DNA of 64,000 bases from the sequence record MF327003; one strand, written 5' to 3'. The stretch comes from Shigella phage Sf14. Positions 14,931 to 17,673 of this stretch are shown here, one piece after another; positions within the stretch are counted from its first letter, which is position 1; each line of letters begins with the position of its first letter. A program made the translations under genes and the position numbers. The notes beneath the pieces are model-generated. The model saw nothing but the letters and a program-made list of their open reading frames with translations, searched no databases and had not been told where the DNA came from.

Positions 14931-14958
14931 TTAAAGAGTTCTTACGAGTATTCTTTAA
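14931..14958 (+). ncRNA. hairpin motif copy A with conserved loop GTTCTTACGAG
   Basis: stem TTAAAGA/TCTTTAA around 11-mer loop core. Confidence 0.45.
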
Positions 14959-14963
14959 AGGAG

Positions 14964-15038
14964 CAGAAGACCAAATACAGCAAGCAATTTTACTATTTCA
15001 AGCCAATTTAATTTGAAAAATTTAAAACTTGGTCTGGT
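14964..15038 (+). ncRNA. structured repeat element copy 3
   Basis: closing stem AGACCAA/TTGGTCT. Confidence 0.4.
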
Positions 15039-15051
15039 TCCAACAATTTTA

Positions 15052-15178
15052 CAGAAGACCGTTTACAGCAAACAATAAACAATCTATTTCTCTTATAAAG
15101 AAAAGGCGAAGGTTCAATTCCTTCACACGTTACGGCGTGTTGGTGTAATGGAAGCACTTAAGATAAATACGGTCTGGT
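15052..15178 (+). ncRNA. structured repeat element copy 4, contains tRNA T-arm-like GAAGG-TTCAATT-CCTTC
   Basis: closing stem AGACCGT/ACGGTCT; internal T-arm mimic and ACACG..CGTGT hairpin. Confidence 0.4.
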
Positions 15179-15327
15179 AATCCTCTTTGCAGTGACTTAT
15201 GGAGCTAACCAGTCGTCCCATGAGTGCCGATGAGTTTCTTGAGCATGATTCTAGATTAGCTTACTAAGAGACAACTCTACAAACCCTTTAGCAAGGTTTG
15301 CGTAGGTTACTGCAAAGATGATTTAAT

Positions 15328-15403
15328 GGAAGTGTAGCAGAATGGTGATGCGGCAGACTTTTAATCTGACAGGCGACGGGTTCGAATCCCTCCACTTCTA
15401 CCA
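15328..15403 (+). tRNA. tRNA-Lys (TTT)
   Basis: acceptor GGAAGTG/CACTTCT, anticodon loop CTTTTAA, CCA. Confidence 0.75.
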
Positions 15404-15407
15404 ATAT

Positions 15408-15484
15408 GGTTCAGTCGCAGATAAGGTAATGCAAGGGTTTCATAAGCCCTATGAATGTGGGTTCGATTCCCACCTGAACCTCCA
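15408..15484 (+). tRNA. tRNA-Met (CAT)
   Basis: acceptor GGTTCAG/CTGAACC perfect, anticodon loop TTCATAA, T-arm GTGGG/CCCAC. Confidence 0.75.
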
Positions 15485-15486
15485 AT

Positions 15487-15562
15487 GCTGGTATAGTTAA
15501 GAAGGTTATAACACTCCCCTGATAAGGGAATATCGGTGGTTCGATTCCACCTACCAGTACCA
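15487..15562 (+). tRNA. tRNA-Ile (GAT)
   Basis: D-stem GTTA/TAAC, anticodon loop CTGATAA, T-arm GGTGG/CCACC, CCA. Confidence 0.75.
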
Positions 15563-15577
15563 AATTTCATAAAGTTG

Positions 15578-15606
15578 TTGACATTCAGATGTGACCACTT
15601 TAAGAT
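15578..15606 (+). promoter_or_regulatory. internal promoter TTGACA-N17-TAAGAT within tRNA island
   Basis: -35 15578-15583, -10 15601-15606. Confidence 0.55.
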
Positions 15607-15777
15607 AACCTTAGTTTTCGTTAGCGTAGCGTCTATTTTAAAAACTTAAAAATAAATGCAAACGATAATGTTTTTCTGGCAGTAGCTTAATAGGCTAAAC
15701 ACCAGCAGGGTATTCCAACTCCCTGTTAAAGAATTTGGCGTACTAGCCCACGGTATGATTAATAAAGTGGGCATCTT

Positions 15778-15805
15778 TAAGGGTTTTCTAAGAGAGCCTT
15801 TAAAG
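15778..15805 (+). ncRNA. hairpin motif copy B (diverged, TAAGGGTTTTCTAAGAGAGCCTTTAAA)
   Basis: related to copies A and C, immediately upstream of tRNA-Arg. Confidence 0.35.
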
Positions 15806-15810
15806 ATAAT

Positions 15811-15887
15811 GCACCCTTAGTTCAAACGGATAGAGCAACGGTCTTCTAAACCGTCAGTTACAGGTTCGAATCCTGTAGGGTGTGCCA
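15811..15887 (+). tRNA. tRNA-Arg (TCT)
   Basis: anticodon stem ACGGT/ACCGT loop CTTCTAA, CCA. Confidence 0.75.
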
Positions 15888-16052
15888 GTTAGTTAGCAGA
15901 TTACTATGACGGCCTTTATGGGTCTCCGCATTGACTTGAAAGAGTCAATCTCATAAGGAGGTGGTCTGTATCTCATGTTTTCCAGAACATGTAAATAATC
16001 TGAGAAGAAGCTTAACAGTGTTGAGATAACAGGGTAAGCTTCGAAATATAGT

Positions 16053-16135
16053 ATGGGACGATGTTAAGACACTAAGGCATGTGCGACGGCCTCCAAAACC
16101 GTTTCAAATGGGTTCGAATCCTACGTCCCATGCCA
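16053..16135 (+). tRNA. tRNA-Trp (CCA), atypical (extra nucleotides between acceptor and D stem)
   Basis: acceptor ATGGGAC/GTCCCAT perfect, anticodon loop CTCCAAA; 83 nt. Confidence 0.5.
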
Positions 16136-16148
16136 AAGTCTTATTAGG

Positions 16149-16236
16149 GGTAGGTAGCGGCTAATGGAAGCCAAACTGTCTTGAAAACAGTTGCCATTGT
16201 AGAGATACGGTGAGGGTTCGACTCCTTTATCTACCG
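16149..16236 (+). tRNA. tRNA-Ser (TGA), type II
   Basis: anticodon stem ACTGT/ACAGT loop CTTGAAA, ~20-nt variable arm. Confidence 0.65.
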
Positions 16237-16491
16237 CCTAATAAGATTTAAAGCTGAGACTCTTTGTTCGAGCAAGTGTTTCAGGTTTCCTCTTCGTGTA
16301 TTGGCGTACACGGCACTGGTAAAGCACCTAGCAGGTGTCACGGAGAAGAGATAGTATCAAGCTCTCCAAAGGTTCTAGTCACCGGATTAAGCAAGACTAT
16401 GCAAAGGCCAATAGGTCTTTTTAGAGAATTGTTAAGGCATTTGATACCATTGTTGCTTTGGCGTCTTAGCAGTTCTCTACAAAGATTTAAT

Positions 16492-16568
16492 GCACCTATA
16501 GCCCAACTGGAAGAGGCAGCAGACTTAGAATCTGCTCAGTGTGAGTTCGAATCTCTCTAGGTGTACCA
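16492..16568 (+). tRNA. tRNA with Leu anticodon TAG but short variable arm
   Basis: acceptor GCACCTA/TAGGTGT, anticodon stem GCAGA/TCTGC loop CTTAGAA, A73, CCA. Confidence 0.6.
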
Positions 16569-16575
16569 AATTAAT

Positions 16576-16651
16576 GCAGGTGTAGCAAAATGGTTATGCG
16601 GCTGACTCTTAATCAGTAAGACGATGGGTTCAATTCCCTCCACCTGTACCA
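16576..16651 (+). tRNA. tRNA-Lys (CTT)
   Basis: acceptor GCAGGTG/CACCTGT, loop CTCTTAA, CCA. Confidence 0.7.
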
Positions 16652-16657
16652 AACAAT

Positions 16658-16733
16658 GGGGATGTAGTTTACATGGTTAAAACATAAGTTTTGCAAACTT
16701 AAGTACAGGGTTCAATTCCCTGCTTCTCCACCA
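16658..16733 (+). tRNA. tRNA-Ala (TGC)
   Basis: anticodon stem TAAGT/ACTTA loop TTTGCAA, T-arm CAGGG/CCCTG, CCA. Confidence 0.7.
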
Positions 16734-16739
16734 ATTAGT

Positions 16740-16814
16740 GCATCCATAGTTTAAACGGGAAAATTACAGTCTTCCAAACTGAGGTTGAGGGTTCGATTCC
16801 CTCTGGATGCTCCA
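16740..16814 (+). tRNA. tRNA-Gly (TCC)
   Basis: acceptor GCATCCA/TGGATGC perfect, loop CTTCCAA, CCA. Confidence 0.75.
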
Positions 16815-16820
16815 AATAAT

Positions 16821-16896
16821 GCTCTTATCGTATAATTGGCTATTACGGTTGCCTTGTAAGCAACTTATCAGGGTTCGAATCCTTGTGGGAGCACCA
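16821..16896 (+). tRNA. tRNA-Thr (TGT)
   Basis: anticodon stem GTTGC/GCAAC loop CTTGTAA, CCA. Confidence 0.75.
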
Positions 16897-16991
16897 ATTT
16901 TGAGGTCAAGTGAAAGACCGCTTGAGTCAACTGAAGACCGTAACAAATCCCACGGAGTTGAGTTAGCGGCACAGCTTCAGACCTCTTCAAA

Positions 16992-17066
16992 GCTCGCTTA
17001 GTTTATATGGTAAAGCCCCATCCTTACAAGTTGGTGAAGAAGGTTCAAGTCCTTCAGCGAGTACCA
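16992..17066 (+). tRNA. tRNA-Val (TAC)
   Basis: acceptor GCTCGCT/AGCGAGT, loop CTTACAA, T-arm GAAGG/CCTTC, CCA. Confidence 0.65.
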
Positions 17067-17067
17067 A

Positions 17068-17145
17068 GTTCCAGTATCCCAATTGGCAGAGGATGCAAGC
17101 TCAAACCTTGTATTAGTGACGGTTCGAATCCGTCTTGGAACACCA
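17068..17145 (+). tRNA. tRNA with Leu anticodon CAA, short variable arm
   Basis: acceptor GTTCCAG/TTGGAAC, anticodon stem GCAAG/CTTGT loop CTCAAAC, A73, CCA. Confidence 0.6.
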
Positions 17146-17161
17146 ATTTTAGGAGATTCCT

Positions 17162-17371
17162 ATGAAGCCTTATGGTAGACATGGTAAAGTTGAAATTGCA
17201 AGTTGTGGCTGCTGTGCAGCGCATGATGAAGAAGATTATTACAAATGGCGTACAGACCATCGTAAACGCTTTCTCAGAAGAGATAAGAAGAGAGCTAGAC
17301 AGGAATCTCAAAAGGATATTGCAGAATTAGTTCAAATGGACAGAGCAGCAACCTACGAAGTTGTTAGTTAG
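17162..17371 (+). CDS. candidate small basic Cys-containing protein (69 aa) inside tRNA island
   Basis: AGGAG 7 nt upstream of ATG; 3' end overlaps tRNA-Arg by ~50 nt so may be spurious. Confidence 0.3.
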   Translation: MKPYGRHGKVEIASCGCCAAHDEEDYYKWRTDHRKRFLRRDKKRARQESQKDIAELVQMDRAATYEVVS

Positions 17372-17397
17372 GGGTTCGAACCCTCTATTCTGCACCA
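17321..17397 (+). tRNA. tRNA-Arg (ACG)
   Basis: acceptor GCAGAAT/ATTCTGC perfect, loop CTACGAA, CCA. Confidence 0.7.
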
Positions 17398-17405
17398 AAT
17401 TTAAT

Positions 17406-17481
17406 AGGGGATTAGTTTACAAGGTTAAAACCTCGGTCTTTGAAATCGAAGAAGATGGTTCAATTCCATCATCCCCCGCCA
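17406..17481 (+). tRNA. tRNA-Gln (TTG)
   Basis: anticodon stem TCGGT/ATCGA loop CTTTGAA, weak 1-72 pair and G73, CCA. Confidence 0.65.
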
Positions 17482-17483
17482 AC

Positions 17484-17562
17484 GCTCCATTACTCCAATT
17501 GGCAGAGAGGCCAGATTTAAAATCTGTGTTATGTATCGGTTCGAATCCGATATGGAGTACCA
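17484..17562 (+). tRNA. tRNA with Leu anticodon TAA, short variable arm
   Basis: acceptor GCTCCAT/ATGGAGT, loop TTTAAAA, A73, CCA. Confidence 0.6.
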
Positions 17563-17568
17563 AATATT

Positions 17569-17644
17569 AGCAGTATAGCATAACTGGCAATGCTCCAGCC
17601 TCTGAAGCTGAAAGATTAAGGTTCAAATCCTTATACTGCTGCCA
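17569..17644 (+). tRNA. tRNA-Gln (CTG)
   Basis: acceptor AGCAGTA/TACTGCT perfect, loop CTCTGAA, CCA. Confidence 0.65.
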
Positions 17645-17647
17645 CTT

Positions 17648-17673
17648 CTAAGGGTTCTTACGAGAGTCCTTAA
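17648..17673 (+). ncRNA. hairpin motif copy C with loop GTTCTTACGAG
   Basis: stem TAAGG/CCTTA (compensatory relative to copy A) around identical 11-mer. Confidence 0.45.

What the first reader, a model, noticed from the sequence alone, without database searches (positions are those of the whole stretch)
14931..17673. Conserved hairpin with invariant loop GTTCTTACGAG placed just upstream of tRNAs
Copies at 14931-14958 and 17648-17673 share an identical 11-nt core (GTTCTTACGAG) but have different, each internally complementary, stems (TTAAAGA/TCTTTAA versus TAAGG/CCTTA). A diverged third copy lies at 15778-15805. Copies sit 3-25 nt before a tRNA or structured element. An invariant loop with compensatory stem changes suggests a protein- or RNase-recognition hairpin, possibly a processing signal for the polycistronic tRNA precursor.
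Basis: seen in the sequence. Interest (0 to 1): 0.55.

Follow-up and report, generated by a model that had tools for sequence, protein, structure and literature searches.

The report
Conserved phage RNA boundary hairpin
A small RNA hairpin with a nearly invariant top sits at the borders between tRNAs and other RNA units in this Felix O1-like phage, and the same motif turns up in unrelated coliphages (T5-like, phiEco32-like), so it is most likely a conserved RNA "punctuation mark" for processing or end-protection whose recognising factor is unknown.

Summary
GTTCTTACGAG occurs exactly twice in the window (14938, 17654), both on the + strand in the tRNA array of a Mooglevirus-like (Ounavirinae) phage. 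Each copy lies in a hairpin with a different stem, and a diverged third copy lies at 15773-15807. The 11-mer is not a loop. It is the upper helix (RUUCU/AGAGU, with G.U and U.G pairs) plus a UNCG tetraloop on a 15-18 bp AU-rich hairpin. G.U pairs, covariation and sense orientation show that it acts as + strand RNA. Among Felix O1-like phages it is more conserved than the flanking tRNAs. The same top occurs in T5-like phages, at the 3' end of the annotated stable "RNA X" 12 nt before tRNA-Arg. It also occurs in phiEco32-like phages (three copies, two directly after terminator-like hairpins) and in one unclassified contig. It is absent from E. coli genomes, Rfam and the searchable literature. 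It always lies at a boundary between RNA units, not only before tRNAs. Best reading: an intercistronic processing or 3'-end-protecting hairpin, of RNase III-site or exonuclease-barrier type. The conserved top hints at a specific factor. None of this is proven. Nearby side finds are a Ro60-fold protein, YrlA-like Y RNA modules, and a widespread tmRNA-like tag-coding RNA.

The parts
14926..14963 (+). Hairpin copy 1 (c1). The outer stem is 14926-14929/14960-14963. The main stem is 14931-14942/14947-14958 with a U/U mismatch. The UACG loop is 14943-14946.
   Evidence: Fold -13.3 kcal/mol, z -3.7. CM R1 scores 54.4 bits on the + strand against 19 bits on the - strand. A-U / G.U / G-C covariation occurs at the 14937:14952 pair among relatives. 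Mean identity is 0.98 across 29 distinct relatives.
17649..17672 (+). Hairpin copy 2 (c2). It has a 10-bp stem and a UACG loop at 17659-17662. It fills the 31-nt spacer between tRNA-Gln-ctg (ends 17644) and tRNA-His (starts 17676).
   Evidence: Fold -13.4 kcal/mol. CM scores 53.6 bits on + against 15 bits on -. Variants GGG>GGA and AGAG>AGAA convert wobble pairs to Watson-Crick pairs. The spacer identity is 0.985, against 0.90 and 0.956 for the flanking tRNAs.
15773..15807 (+). Hairpin copy 3 (c3), diverged. It has 16 continuous bp and a UAA loop. It is the 3'-terminal hairpin of the promoter-driven tmRNA-like RNA and lies 3 nt before tRNA-Arg-tct (15811).
   Evidence: Fold is -17.9 kcal/mol on + against -8.5 on -. 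The orthologous position in phiEa21-4 holds the canonical motif. One-sided changes keep pairing through G.U. In Moogle it is replaced by a longer hairpin with a different top.
14912..14925 (+). A short G+C-rich hairpin (GGGCU UUUU AGCCC) immediately 5' of c1. It is the counterpart of the terminator-like hairpins that precede the motif in phiEco32-like phages and L139.
   Evidence: Fold (last sequence). Identity 0.97 among relatives.
12090..12111 (+). A possible truncated relative of the hairpin (CCUUUUAAGGGUUCUUAAAAGA) just upstream of the RBS of the DUF5681 gene. This is a weak call.
   Evidence: CM R1 scores 20.2 bits, E 0.015, with the top of the model deleted. Sequence.
14801..14877 (+). 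tRNA-Asp, the RNA unit upstream of c1.
   Evidence: ARAGORN and Rfam.
14964..15178 (+). Two Y-RNA-like modules downstream of c1: module 3 at 14964-15038 and module 4 at 15051-15178. Module 4 has the closing stem AGACCGU/ACGGUCU enclosing a T arm (15108-15124), an acceptor-like stem-loop (15125-15140) and a D arm (15143-15157).
   Evidence: Repeat family D10/D20. The MFE fold gives the closing stem plus V, T, AS and D hairpins. The AS stem covaries, ACACG/CGUGU against ACUCG/CGAGU.
15578..15772 (+). The RNA unit upstream of c3. It has a sigma-70-like promoter (15578-15606) and a tmRNA-like tag-coding RNA. The tag ORF is 15658-15693 (ANDNVFLAVA**). The pseudoknot is 15739-15772.
   Evidence: Promoter scan. 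Homology to phiEa21-4 and many other phage families. Tag variants.
17569..17752 (+). tRNA-Gln-ctg (17569-17644) and tRNA-His (17676-17752), the units flanking c2.
   Evidence: ARAGORN and Rfam.
15811..15887 (+). tRNA-Arg-tct, the unit downstream of c3.
   Evidence: ARAGORN and Rfam.

Best explanation
The element is a transcribed, + strand RNA hairpin that marks boundaries between RNA units (tRNA, non-coding RNA, mRNA) in long phage transcripts.

Anatomy (shown). It is a 15-18 bp AU-rich stem. The upper 10-12 bp end in a conserved top, R-UUCU-[UNCG]-AGAG-U. A mismatch or small internal loop often separates this from 4-6 further base pairs.

Proposed mechanism (inferred). The precursor is cut next to or within the base of the hairpin. 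The cut is made by RNase P where a tRNA follows. Elsewhere it is made by a double-strand- or structure-guided host endonuclease, either RNase III acting as at phage T7's intercistronic sites or RNase E. The upper hairpin then stays on the 3' end of the upstream RNA and blocks 3'-to-5' exonucleases. This defines and stabilises that RNA's end and releases the downstream unit.

The near-invariance of the top across unrelated phages suggests that a specific factor reads it, but that factor is not identified.
For: It acts as RNA on the sense strand. Tandem G.U/U.G pairs would be A.C mismatches on the other strand. The CM scores 54 bits on + against 15-19 bits on -. The c3 fold is -17.9 against -8.5 kcal/mol. 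All independent sites lie in the orientation of the flanking genes.

The structure is under selection. On the Ounavirinae set, 91.7% of cells are paired and 5 pairs change on both sides; no shuffle reaches the observed percentage paired or covariation score (0/500). Across four phage groups, 90.2% are paired and 8 of 15 pairs change on both sides (2/500 shuffles reach that count), while slid registers give 40-62%.

Purifying selection is stronger than on the neighbouring tRNAs.

Every site is a boundary:
- c2 lies between two tRNAs.
- c3 and its phiEa21-4 orthologue lie between a promoter-driven ncRNA and a tRNA.
- c1 lies between tRNA-Asp and the Y-like modules.
- The T5 copy is the last structure of the annotated 'rnaX: stable RNA with unknown functions', which ends at the first base of tRNA-Arg.
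- ECBP2 copies A and B bracket a ~190-nt non-coding stretch between two ORFs.
- ECBP2 copy 3 and L139 follow terminator-like hairpins.

At the c3 position the long hairpin is kept while its top is free to change, as seen in Felix O1-like phages and Moogle. That fits a generic end-forming or protecting role.

The length, and the mismatch 10-12 bp below the loop, resemble T7 RNase III sites. That comparison is from my own knowledge, not a test.
Against: No RNA-end data exist for any of these phages, so no cleavage has been shown.

Neither RNase III nor exonuclease blockage needs a specific sequence, so the invariant top is unexplained by this model alone.

For c2 the upstream unit is a tRNA. A tRNA needs its 3' trailer removed, not protected, and RNase P already cuts 3 nt downstream. 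A separate processing site looks redundant there.

The closing pair of the tetraloop is U-A, not the C-G that gives UNCG loops their special stability.

The hairpin has no U tract, so it is not a terminator.
Confidence: 0.45

Rival explanations
1. The conserved top is a sequence-specific binding site. A dedicated host or phage RNA-binding protein or nuclease reads the RUUCU-UNCG-AGAGU helix top. The hairpin would then work as a regulator, a recruitment site or a decoy (for example against a host RNA-targeting defence), not as a generic processing structure. It might even act as a free ~30-nt RNA released between two tRNAs.
For: The top 5 bp plus loop frame are almost invariant across Ounavirinae, T5-like, phiEco32-like phages and L139, while the lower stems differ freely. 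Only the N of UNCG and wobble-to-Watson-Crick changes are tolerated. c2 fills the whole 31-nt spacer between two tRNAs, so it would be released as a small free hairpin by ordinary tRNA processing. The motif is phage-only: there is no match in 5,426 E. coli genomes, and the 30 hits in 185,579 bacterial genomes are scattered at chance level.
Against: No candidate protein has been found. The only RNA-binding protein nearby, the Ro60-like one, is absent from T5-like and phiEco32-like phages. At the c3 position the top has been lost or replaced in Felix O1-like phages and in Moogle while the hairpin persists. Part of the apparent invariance comes from how the distant copies were found: BLAST seeded on the 11-mer, and a pattern that fixed AAG..TTCTT.CGAGAGT.CTT.
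Confidence: 0.25
2. It is a transcription-level element coupled to terminators. The hairpin would modulate termination or read-through, or pause RNA polymerase, at the end of the preceding unit.
For: In four independent places the motif directly follows a G+C-rich, terminator-like hairpin. In ECBP2 copy 3 its 5' arm even starts in the U tract (GGCCGCUUUUUUAAGAG). The four places are window c1, ECBP2 B, ECBP2 copy 3 and L139.
Against: A structure that forms only after the U tract has been transcribed cannot affect that terminator. c2, c3, the T5 copy and the phiEa21-4 copy have no terminator in front. The hairpin itself lacks a U tract.
Confidence: 0.1
3. It is a DNA-level signal or a scar of mobile DNA, such as a homing-endonuclease target, a recombination junction or a cassette end, and is conserved because it travels with mobile cassettes in tRNA regions.
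For: Gene content changes right next to the hairpin. An ORF sits between the hairpin and tRNA-Arg in S126 but not in T5. A different sequence follows c3 in Si3-type phages. HNH endonuclease genes are inserted in this region in relatives. Occurrence in unrelated phage families implies horizontal spread.
Against: Pairing depends on G.U wobble, which has no meaning in duplex DNA. Covariation maintains an RNA helix. The orientation always follows transcription. The flanks of the copies share no extended similarity.
Confidence: 0.07
4. It is a degenerate tRNA fragment (a T-arm remnant beginning GGGTTC) or a chance repeat with no function.
For: c2 begins AGGGTTC like the T arms of the array (families D1-D3). 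The array holds several pseudo-tRNAs.
Against: There is no 7-nt T loop. Rfam's tRNA model does not match c1 or c2 even at E <= 1. Conservation exceeds that of functional tRNAs. The motif is present in phages at sites without tRNAs.
Confidence: 0.03

Closest known systems
Phage T5 'RNA X' (misc_RNA rnaX, AY543070 40848-41566, 'stable RNA with unknown functions')
   Same: The last structure of RNA X is the same motif, UUUAAGAGUUUU[UACG]AGAGUUCUUAAA. It lies 12 nt before tRNA-Arg-tct, on the sense strand (CM 36.6 bits). The arrangement, a promoter-driven non-coding RNA then the hairpin then a tRNA, matches c3 in the window.
   Different: The body of RNA X shares no detectable similarity with the window's tmRNA-like RNA. 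The T5 record does not single out the hairpin and gives no function. T5 has U.G where the others have C-G in the top.
Intercistronic RNase III processing hairpins of phage T7 early and late mRNAs (R0.3, R1.1 and others), and the RNase III cut just upstream of tRNA-Gln in the phage T4 tRNA cluster (both from my own knowledge of the literature)
   Same: These are long, irregular hairpins between cistrons of a polycistronic phage transcript. They have an upper stem of about 10 bp above an internal loop. The cut leaves the hairpin on the 3' end of the upstream RNA as a stabiliser. The T4 case lies directly before a tRNA.
   Different: RNase III sites share no sequence-conserved top. Here the top is nearly invariant across phage families. 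The stems are shorter (15-18 bp against about 20 bp or more). Cleavage has not been shown.
3' stabiliser hairpins (terminator stems, REP elements) that block PNPase and RNase II
   Same: A stable stem-loop a few nucleotides from the 3' end created by processing. This would be the case after RNase P cuts at tRNA-His, tRNA-Arg or tRNA-Leu.
   Different: There is no U tract and the stem is not G+C-rich. The top is sequence-conserved. c1 and c2 follow tRNAs, which do not need such protection.
UNCG tetraloop hairpins
   Same: The loop is UACG, UCCG or UGCG, and only the N varies.
   Different: The canonical extra-stable form has a C-G closing pair. Here the closing pair is an invariant U-A. One relative (Bas63 c2) has UACA.
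Protein-recognised phage RNA hairpins (lambda boxB, the MS2 operator)
   Same: A short hairpin whose top is sequence-constrained while the lower stem covaries.
   Different: There is no sequence resemblance, no known partner, and no bulged or extruded base in the conserved part.

Membership tests
RNase III processing site (T7 type) | A double-stranded stem of roughly one and a half to two helical turns | tested here: met
   15-18 bp including outer pairs in c1, c2, c3, T5, S126, ECBP2 A/B and L139.
RNase III processing site (T7 type) | Located between functional units of a polycistronic transcript | tested here: met
   All nine independent sites lie at unit boundaries.
RNase III processing site (T7 type) | Cleaved by RNase III in vivo or in vitro, with ends altered in rnc mutants | not testable with these tools
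   No end-mapping or enzymology data were found.
RNase III processing site (T7 type) | Absence of antideterminant base pairs in the proximal and distal boxes | not tested
   The cleavage site is unknown, so the boxes cannot be placed.
Intrinsic (rho-independent) terminator | A G+C-rich stem followed by a U tract | tested here: not met
   The stems are AU-rich and are followed by AAAGGAG, AAAUGUGG and AAGAUAAU. The terminator scan does not call them.
UNCG tetraloop hairpin | A four-base loop U-N-C-G | tested here: met
   UACG (c1, c2, T5, S126, ECBP2 A, phiEa21-4), UCCG (ECBP2 B, L139) and UGCG (one c1 variant, ECBP2 copy 3). The exceptions are UACA in Bas63 c2 and UAA in c3.
UNCG tetraloop hairpin | A C-G closing base pair | tested here: not met
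   The closing pair is U-A in all 15 aligned sequences (columns 15:20).
tRNA or T-arm remnant | A 5-bp stem with a 7-nt UUCRANY loop, or a match to the tRNA covariance model | tested here: not met
   There is no Rfam tRNA hit at c1 or c2 at E <= 1. The fold gives a 4-nt loop.
Any Rfam family | A score above, or near, a family's gathering threshold | tested here: not met
   cmscan of 13500-19500 at E <= 1 finds nothing at the three hairpins.
Ro60-binding helix of Y RNAs | The GNCGAAN0-1G / GGUCCGA motif in the terminal stem, and co-occurrence with a Ro60 gene | tested here: not met
   The hairpin has no such motif (motif definition from PMC4201824). The hairpin occurs in T5-like and phiEco32-like phages, which do not show up among 708 records holding the Ro60-like protein.
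CRISPR-like or tandem repeat array | Regularly spaced tandem copies | tested here: not met
   Copies lie about 840 and 1880 nt apart with unrelated content between them.

The most novel reading that the evidence does not exclude
The invariant top (R-UUCU-UNCG-AGAG-U, with tandem wobble pairs) may be the recognition site of a specific, still unidentified RNA-binding protein or nuclease. At least four unrelated lineages of virulent enterobacterial phages would exploit it. It could be a dedicated 'punctuation' endonuclease signal, or a small decoy RNA (c2 would be released as a free ~30-nt hairpin) that titrates a host RNA-targeting factor.
Probability: 0.2. Interest if true: 0.75.

Novelty: new variant of a known kind. 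Interest (0 to 1): 0.5.

Why it matters
Phage tRNA arrays are usually annotated as bare lists of tRNAs. This hairpin shows that the arrays carry conserved non-tRNA RNA signals that recur across unrelated coliphage families.

If it is a processing or end-protecting signal, it explains how non-tRNA RNAs embedded in these arrays obtain defined, stable ends. Those RNAs include T5 RNA X, a tmRNA-like RNA and Y-RNA-like modules.

If its conserved top is read by a specific factor, it is a handle for finding that factor.

It is also a simple marker. Searching for it led directly to unannotated non-coding RNA regions in T5-like, phiEco32-like and G7C-like phages.

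Tried and rejected
1. Hairpin as a Ro60/Y-RNA binding site. Rejected: it has no GNCGAA-type motif, and it occurs in phages without the Ro60-like gene.

2. T-arm remnant. Rejected.

3. Terminator. Rejected.

4. First IMG/VR pattern scan, GTTCTTACGAGNNTYYTT. Most of the 120 hits were chance matches without a hairpin or a tRNA; only the Ounavirinae contigs were real. L043 and L145 looked like new hosts of the motif but lie inside ORFs and are taken as chance.

5. Genome-contig scan. It gave 30 scattered hits at roughly the level my own arithmetic gives for chance matches to the pattern, plus one phiEco32-like contig binned in a MAG.

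6. E. coli genomes. No copy.

7. Literal search for the motif string in papers. Only unrelated primers were found.

8. Searches for T5 RNA X literature and for phage transcriptome end-mapping found nothing usable.

9. ARAGORN tmRNA mode on the window found nothing, even at lowered threshold.

10. The single-sequence AlphaFold model of the 471-aa protein was useless (pLDDT 41). Sequence and profile searches against PDB found nothing. Only the MSA-based model plus Foldseek showed the Ro60 fold.

11. I looked for a protein shared by all hairpin-bearing phages only indirectly, through the Ro60-like gene. No systematic comparison was done.

Full report
**What the window is**

The window is 98.6% identical over the tRNA region to Shigella phage ESh20 (Mooglevirus, Ounavirinae). 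It is 84-88% identical to the Suspvirus and Felixounavirus relatives listed, out of 355 matching phage records. ARAGORN finds 25 tRNA genes on the + strand between 14151 and 18762.

**Check of the observation**

- GTTCTTACGAG occurs exactly at 14938 and 17654, both on the + strand, and nowhere else in the window. My arithmetic gives about 0.03 exact matches expected by chance.
- Each copy lies inside its own inverted repeat.
- The third copy at 15778-15805 is diverged.
- c2 ends 3 nt before tRNA-His. c3 ends 3 nt before tRNA-Arg-tct. c1 is followed by a repeated structured module.

**What the structure really is**

Folded as RNA, the helix runs through the supposed 11-nt loop to a 4-nt UACG loop. 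For c2 this gives UAAGGGUUCU[UACG]AGAGUCCUUA.
- c1 has the same top with one U/U mismatch.
- c3 is a 16-bp helix with a UAA loop.
- z-scores are -3.2 to -4.2.
- Outer pairs extend the hairpins to 15-18 bp.
- The top contains G.U and U.G pairs, so the structure exists only in + strand RNA. For c3 the + strand fold is -17.9 kcal/mol and the - strand fold is -8.5 kcal/mol.

**Conservation and covariation in relatives**

Both canonical copies sit at the same two positions in every Felixounavirus, Suspvirus and Mooglevirus locus examined.

Variants keep the pairing:
- The c1 pair is A-U in the sequence variants seen at 18 loci, G-C in the variants seen at 8, G.U in one seen at 2, and A.C in one seen once.
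- c2 variants GGG>GGA and AGAG>AGAA turn wobble pairs into Watson-Crick pairs.
- One c1 variant has a UGCG loop.

On 13 distinct Ounavirinae sequences, 91.7% of cells pair and 5 of 12 pairs change on both sides. No shuffle reaches the observed percentage paired or covariation score (0/500), and slid registers give 40-62% pairing.

The hairpins are more conserved than the tRNAs beside them:

| Element | Mean identity |
|---|---|
| c2 spacer | 0.985 |
| tRNA-Gln | 0.90 |
| tRNA-His | 0.956 |
| c1 | 0.98 |
| tRNA-Asp | 0.909 |

**c3 and its orthologue**

Window 15575-15810 is homologous to phiEa21-4 (Kolesnikvirus) L008 3815-4060. Both have a sigma-70-like promoter (window 15578-15606), then a ~200-nt non-tRNA RNA, then the hairpin, then a tRNA. 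In phiEa21-4 the hairpin has the canonical top (AAAGGUUCU[UACG]AGAGUCUUU) and the tRNA is Leu-caa.

So c3 is a real paralogue whose top has drifted in the Felix O1-like lineage. In Moogle the top has been replaced by a longer insert on a similar base. A covariance model built from c1, c2 and phiEa21-4 scores c1 and c2 at 54 bits but c3 at only 10.5 bits.

**The motif outside Ounavirinae**

BLAST with c2 and a stricter pattern scan found the same top in other phage groups.

- *T5-like phages.* In T5 the hairpin UUUAAGAGUUUU[UACG]AGAGUUCUUAAA lies 12 nt before tRNA-Arg-tct. It is the last structure of the annotated misc_RNA 'rnaX: stable RNA with unknown functions', which runs from promoter P16-17 to the base before the tRNA. 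In Epseptimavirus S126 an ORF is inserted between the hairpin and the tRNA.
- *phiEco32-like phages (ECBP2, Bas92 and many others).* Copy A lies right after a stop codon. Copy B, with a UCCG loop, lies after a terminator-like hairpin and before the next ORF. The two bracket a ~190-nt non-coding stretch that is shared with G7C-like phages. A third copy (GUCUU[UGCG]AGGAU) starts in the U tract of a terminator.
- *A 59-kb IMG/VR contig, L139.* It has AUAAGCAUUCU[UCCG]AGAGUGCUUAU after a terminator and about 75 nt before a gene start.

All copies are in the sense orientation. On 15 sequences from these groups, 90.2% of cells pair and 8 of 15 pairs change on both sides, a count reached by 2 of 500 shuffles; no shuffle reaches the observed percentage paired or covariation score.

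There is one caveat. The distant copies were found with queries that fixed the top and partly fixed AAG/CUU, so the degree of invariance is inflated.

The motif is absent from 5,426 E. coli genomes. It occurs in bacterial genomes only at about the level my arithmetic gives for chance matches to the pattern. It is absent from Rfam and from the searchable literature as a string.

**Interpretation**

Shown:
- It is a + strand RNA hairpin under strong purifying selection.
- It has a sequence-conserved top and a covarying base.
- It always lies at a boundary between RNA units.
- In T5 it lies at the 3' end of an annotated stable RNA.

Inferred: the precursor is cut beside or in the base of the hairpin. 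RNase P makes the cut where a tRNA follows. Elsewhere RNase III, as at T7 sites, or RNase E makes it. The hairpin then caps the 3' end of the upstream RNA against exonucleases.

This fits c3, phiEa21-4, T5 and the phiEco32-like sites well. It fits c2 less well, because the upstream unit there is a tRNA and RNase P already cuts 3 nt away. It does not explain the invariant top.

The main rival is therefore a specific protein-binding site. Lesser rivals are a terminator-coupled element, a DNA-level or mobile scar (contradicted by G.U-dependent pairing and fixed orientation), and a tRNA remnant (contradicted).

The 'invariant loop' is a helix top plus a tetraloop, and the motif is not specific to tRNAs.

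**Comparison with known things**

The closest known object is the unnamed 3' hairpin of T5 RNA X, which carries the same motif. The closest known mechanism is the T7/T4 type of RNase III intercistronic site, or a 3' stabiliser hairpin. Membership in the RNase III class is met for stem length and position, and untestable for cleavage. It is not a terminator, not a canonical C(UNCG)G hairpin, not an Rfam family and not a Ro60-binding helix.

I rate it a new variant of a known kind: an intercistronic processing or stability hairpin with an unusual top conserved across phage families.

**Things found on the way**

These are listed in full in the separate field.

1. The 471-aa protein just upstream (12570-13985; DUF2828 plus DUF7788; PHROG 850 'RNA-binding protein') has the Ro60 fold. 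The MSA-based AlphaFold model has pLDDT 88. Its top seven Foldseek hits are all Ro60/Rsr, at E 4e-8 to 1e-6 and TM 0.4-0.6 over the full length, and it has a DVSSSM MIDAS-like motif. It is about 33-35% identical to mycobacteriophage 'Ro-like RNA binding protein'.

2. Four repeated modules, CAGAAGRCC-N-UUACAGCAARC ... YGGUCUGGU, lie at 14318-15178. The fourth folds into a closing stem around V, T, acceptor-like and D hairpins, with covariation in the acceptor-like stem. This is the architecture of bacterial YrlA Y RNAs (PMC4201824). In Moogle the acceptor-like loop reads GCCAAACA, which recalls the RNase P-cleaved, CCA-tailed M. smegmatis YrlA (PMC4201824).

3. The RNA that ends in c3 carries a tmRNA-type tag reading frame (15658-15693, ANDNVFLAVA**). 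It has no start codon, is preceded by AAAAAUAAAU, and is followed by a covarying pseudoknot. Homologues with tags ANEEMYLAVA, ANDNTFLAVA, ANDDVILMAA and ANDAQFLAVA occur unannotated among the 578 matching phage records, which span lambdoid, Vi01-like, G7C-like, Klebsiella sipho- and other phages. Third-position changes are synonymous in the tag frame. No tRNA-like domain is attached. The 2014 tmRNA census lists phage ssrA only in mycobacteriophages and Bacillus phage G (PMC4131195). The Moogle genome note reports an ARAGORN 'ssrA' (PMC4319497), which I reproduced as a doubtful 'permuted' call.

Noticed in passing
window 15578-15772 (+); tag ORF 15658-15693; pseudoknot 15739-15772: A promoter-driven RNA carries a tmRNA-type tag frame (ANDNVFLAVA, then two stops). 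It has no start codon, is preceded by AAAAAUAAAU, and is followed by a covarying H-type pseudoknot. No tRNA-like domain is attached. Homologous, unannotated elements with tags ANEEMYLAVA, ANDNTFLAVA, ANDDVILMAA and ANDAQFLAVA occur among the 578 phage records that match it, from many families (HK633, BUCT541, Vi01, G7C-like, Kolesnikvirus). Third-position changes are synonymous in the tag frame. Rfam gives only weak permuted-tmRNA hits. The 2014 tmRNA census does not list such phages (PMC4131195).
   Followed up: partly
window 12570-13985 (+): The 471-aa DUF2828/DUF7788 protein directly upstream of the tRNA array has the Ro60 (TROVE ring plus vWA/MIDAS) fold. The MSA-based model has pLDDT 88. 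Its top seven Foldseek PDB hits are all Ro60/Rsr (E 4e-8 to 1e-6). It is about 33-35% identical to mycobacteriophage 'Ro-like RNA binding protein'.
   Followed up: yes
window 14318-14388, 14481-14549, 14964-15038, 15051-15178 (+): There are four repeated modules, CAGAAGRCC-N-UUACAGCAARC ... YGGUCUGGU, each closing into a terminal stem. The fourth encloses a permuted tRNA-like domain: T arm 15108-15124, acceptor-like stem-loop 15125-15140, D arm 15143-15157. This is like bacterial YrlA Y RNAs, and it lies next to the Ro60-like gene (PMC4201824). Rfam calls 15058-15132 a weak tRNA at 30 bits.
   Followed up: partly
L181 (Citrobacter phage Moogle) 1971-2719: In Moogle the acceptor-like stem of module 4 reads ACCCUUC-GCCA-AACA-GAAGGGU. 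That is a 7-bp stem with an internal CCA, like the RNase P-cleaved, CCA-tailed M. smegmatis YrlA. ARAGORN uses it to call a 'permuted tmRNA' together with the distant tag ORF. This probably explains the 'ssrA' reported in the Moogle genome note (PMC4319497). The 5' domain that ARAGORN picks lies inside tRNA-Lys and looks spurious.
   Followed up: partly
L008 (phiEa21-4) 3652-3808: A ~157-nt tRNA-like RNA lies directly upstream of the tag-RNA promoter. Its 5' end, GGGUGAUUCUGCAACGG, resembles my recollection of the 5' end of E. coli tmRNA. Its 3' end is GGUUCGAAUCCUUAAUCACUCGCCA. It could be the tRNA-like partner of the tag RNA. BLAST finds no homologue in the window.
   Followed up: partly
window 15243-15262 (+): UGAUUCUAGAUUAGC, in the 140-nt unassigned stretch before tRNA-Lys-ttt, resembles the tmRNA 5' region UGAUUCUGGAUUCGAC (from memory). 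The block GATTCTAGATT is invariant in relatives. No matching 3' acceptor strand was looked for.
   Followed up: no
window 12090-12111 (+): A short hairpin, CCUUUUAAGGGUUCUUAAAAGA, shares UAAGGGUUCUUA with c2. It lies just before the RBS of the DUF5681 gene (12120-12491). The CM scores it 20 bits with the top deleted.
   Followed up: partly
L136 (ECBP2) 2494-2777; L137 (Bas92) same region: In phiEco32-like phages two copies of the hairpin bracket a ~190-nt non-coding stretch that includes a terminator-like hairpin. Its core is shared with G7C-like N4-type phages. Its nature was not examined.
   Followed up: no
L180 (T5) 622-1340: T5 'RNA X' (719 nt, function unknown) begins with a tRNA-like element, contains two repeats of AGTCACCTTGAC(T/A)TAAACTGGAA that look like internal promoters, and ends in the hairpin.
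   Followed up: no
window 16053-16135 and 14709-14789 (+): Two tRNA-like genes are missed by ARAGORN. One is Trp-like (anticodon CCA at 16093-16095) with a much enlarged D arm. It folds as a cloverleaf and Rfam does not call it. The other is Tyr-like (GTA), scores 22.8 bits in Rfam, and is annotated tRNA-Tyr or pseudo-tRNA in relatives. tRNA-Asn (14561-14637) has a similar D-arm insert, GCACAUAAGGCAUGUGC.
   Followed up: partly
window 17675-17676 (+): By my hand alignment, the tRNA-His gene has U (A in one relative) at position -1 and C at position 73. The G-1 that E. coli encodes for tRNA-His would therefore not be templated. The c2 hairpin ends 3 nt upstream.
   Followed up: no
window 17162-17371 (+): A 69-aa basic, Cys-rich ORF inside the array overlaps the start of tRNA-Arg-acg. 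It matches PHROG 10765 at 1e-49 and is annotated in relatives. Function unknown.
   Followed up: no
window 14880-14903 (+): A ~24-nt insertion (TTATAATAAGTATTTCAAAATGAT) after tRNA-Asp is present in the window but absent from six aligned relatives. It contains a TATAAT hexamer.
   Followed up: no
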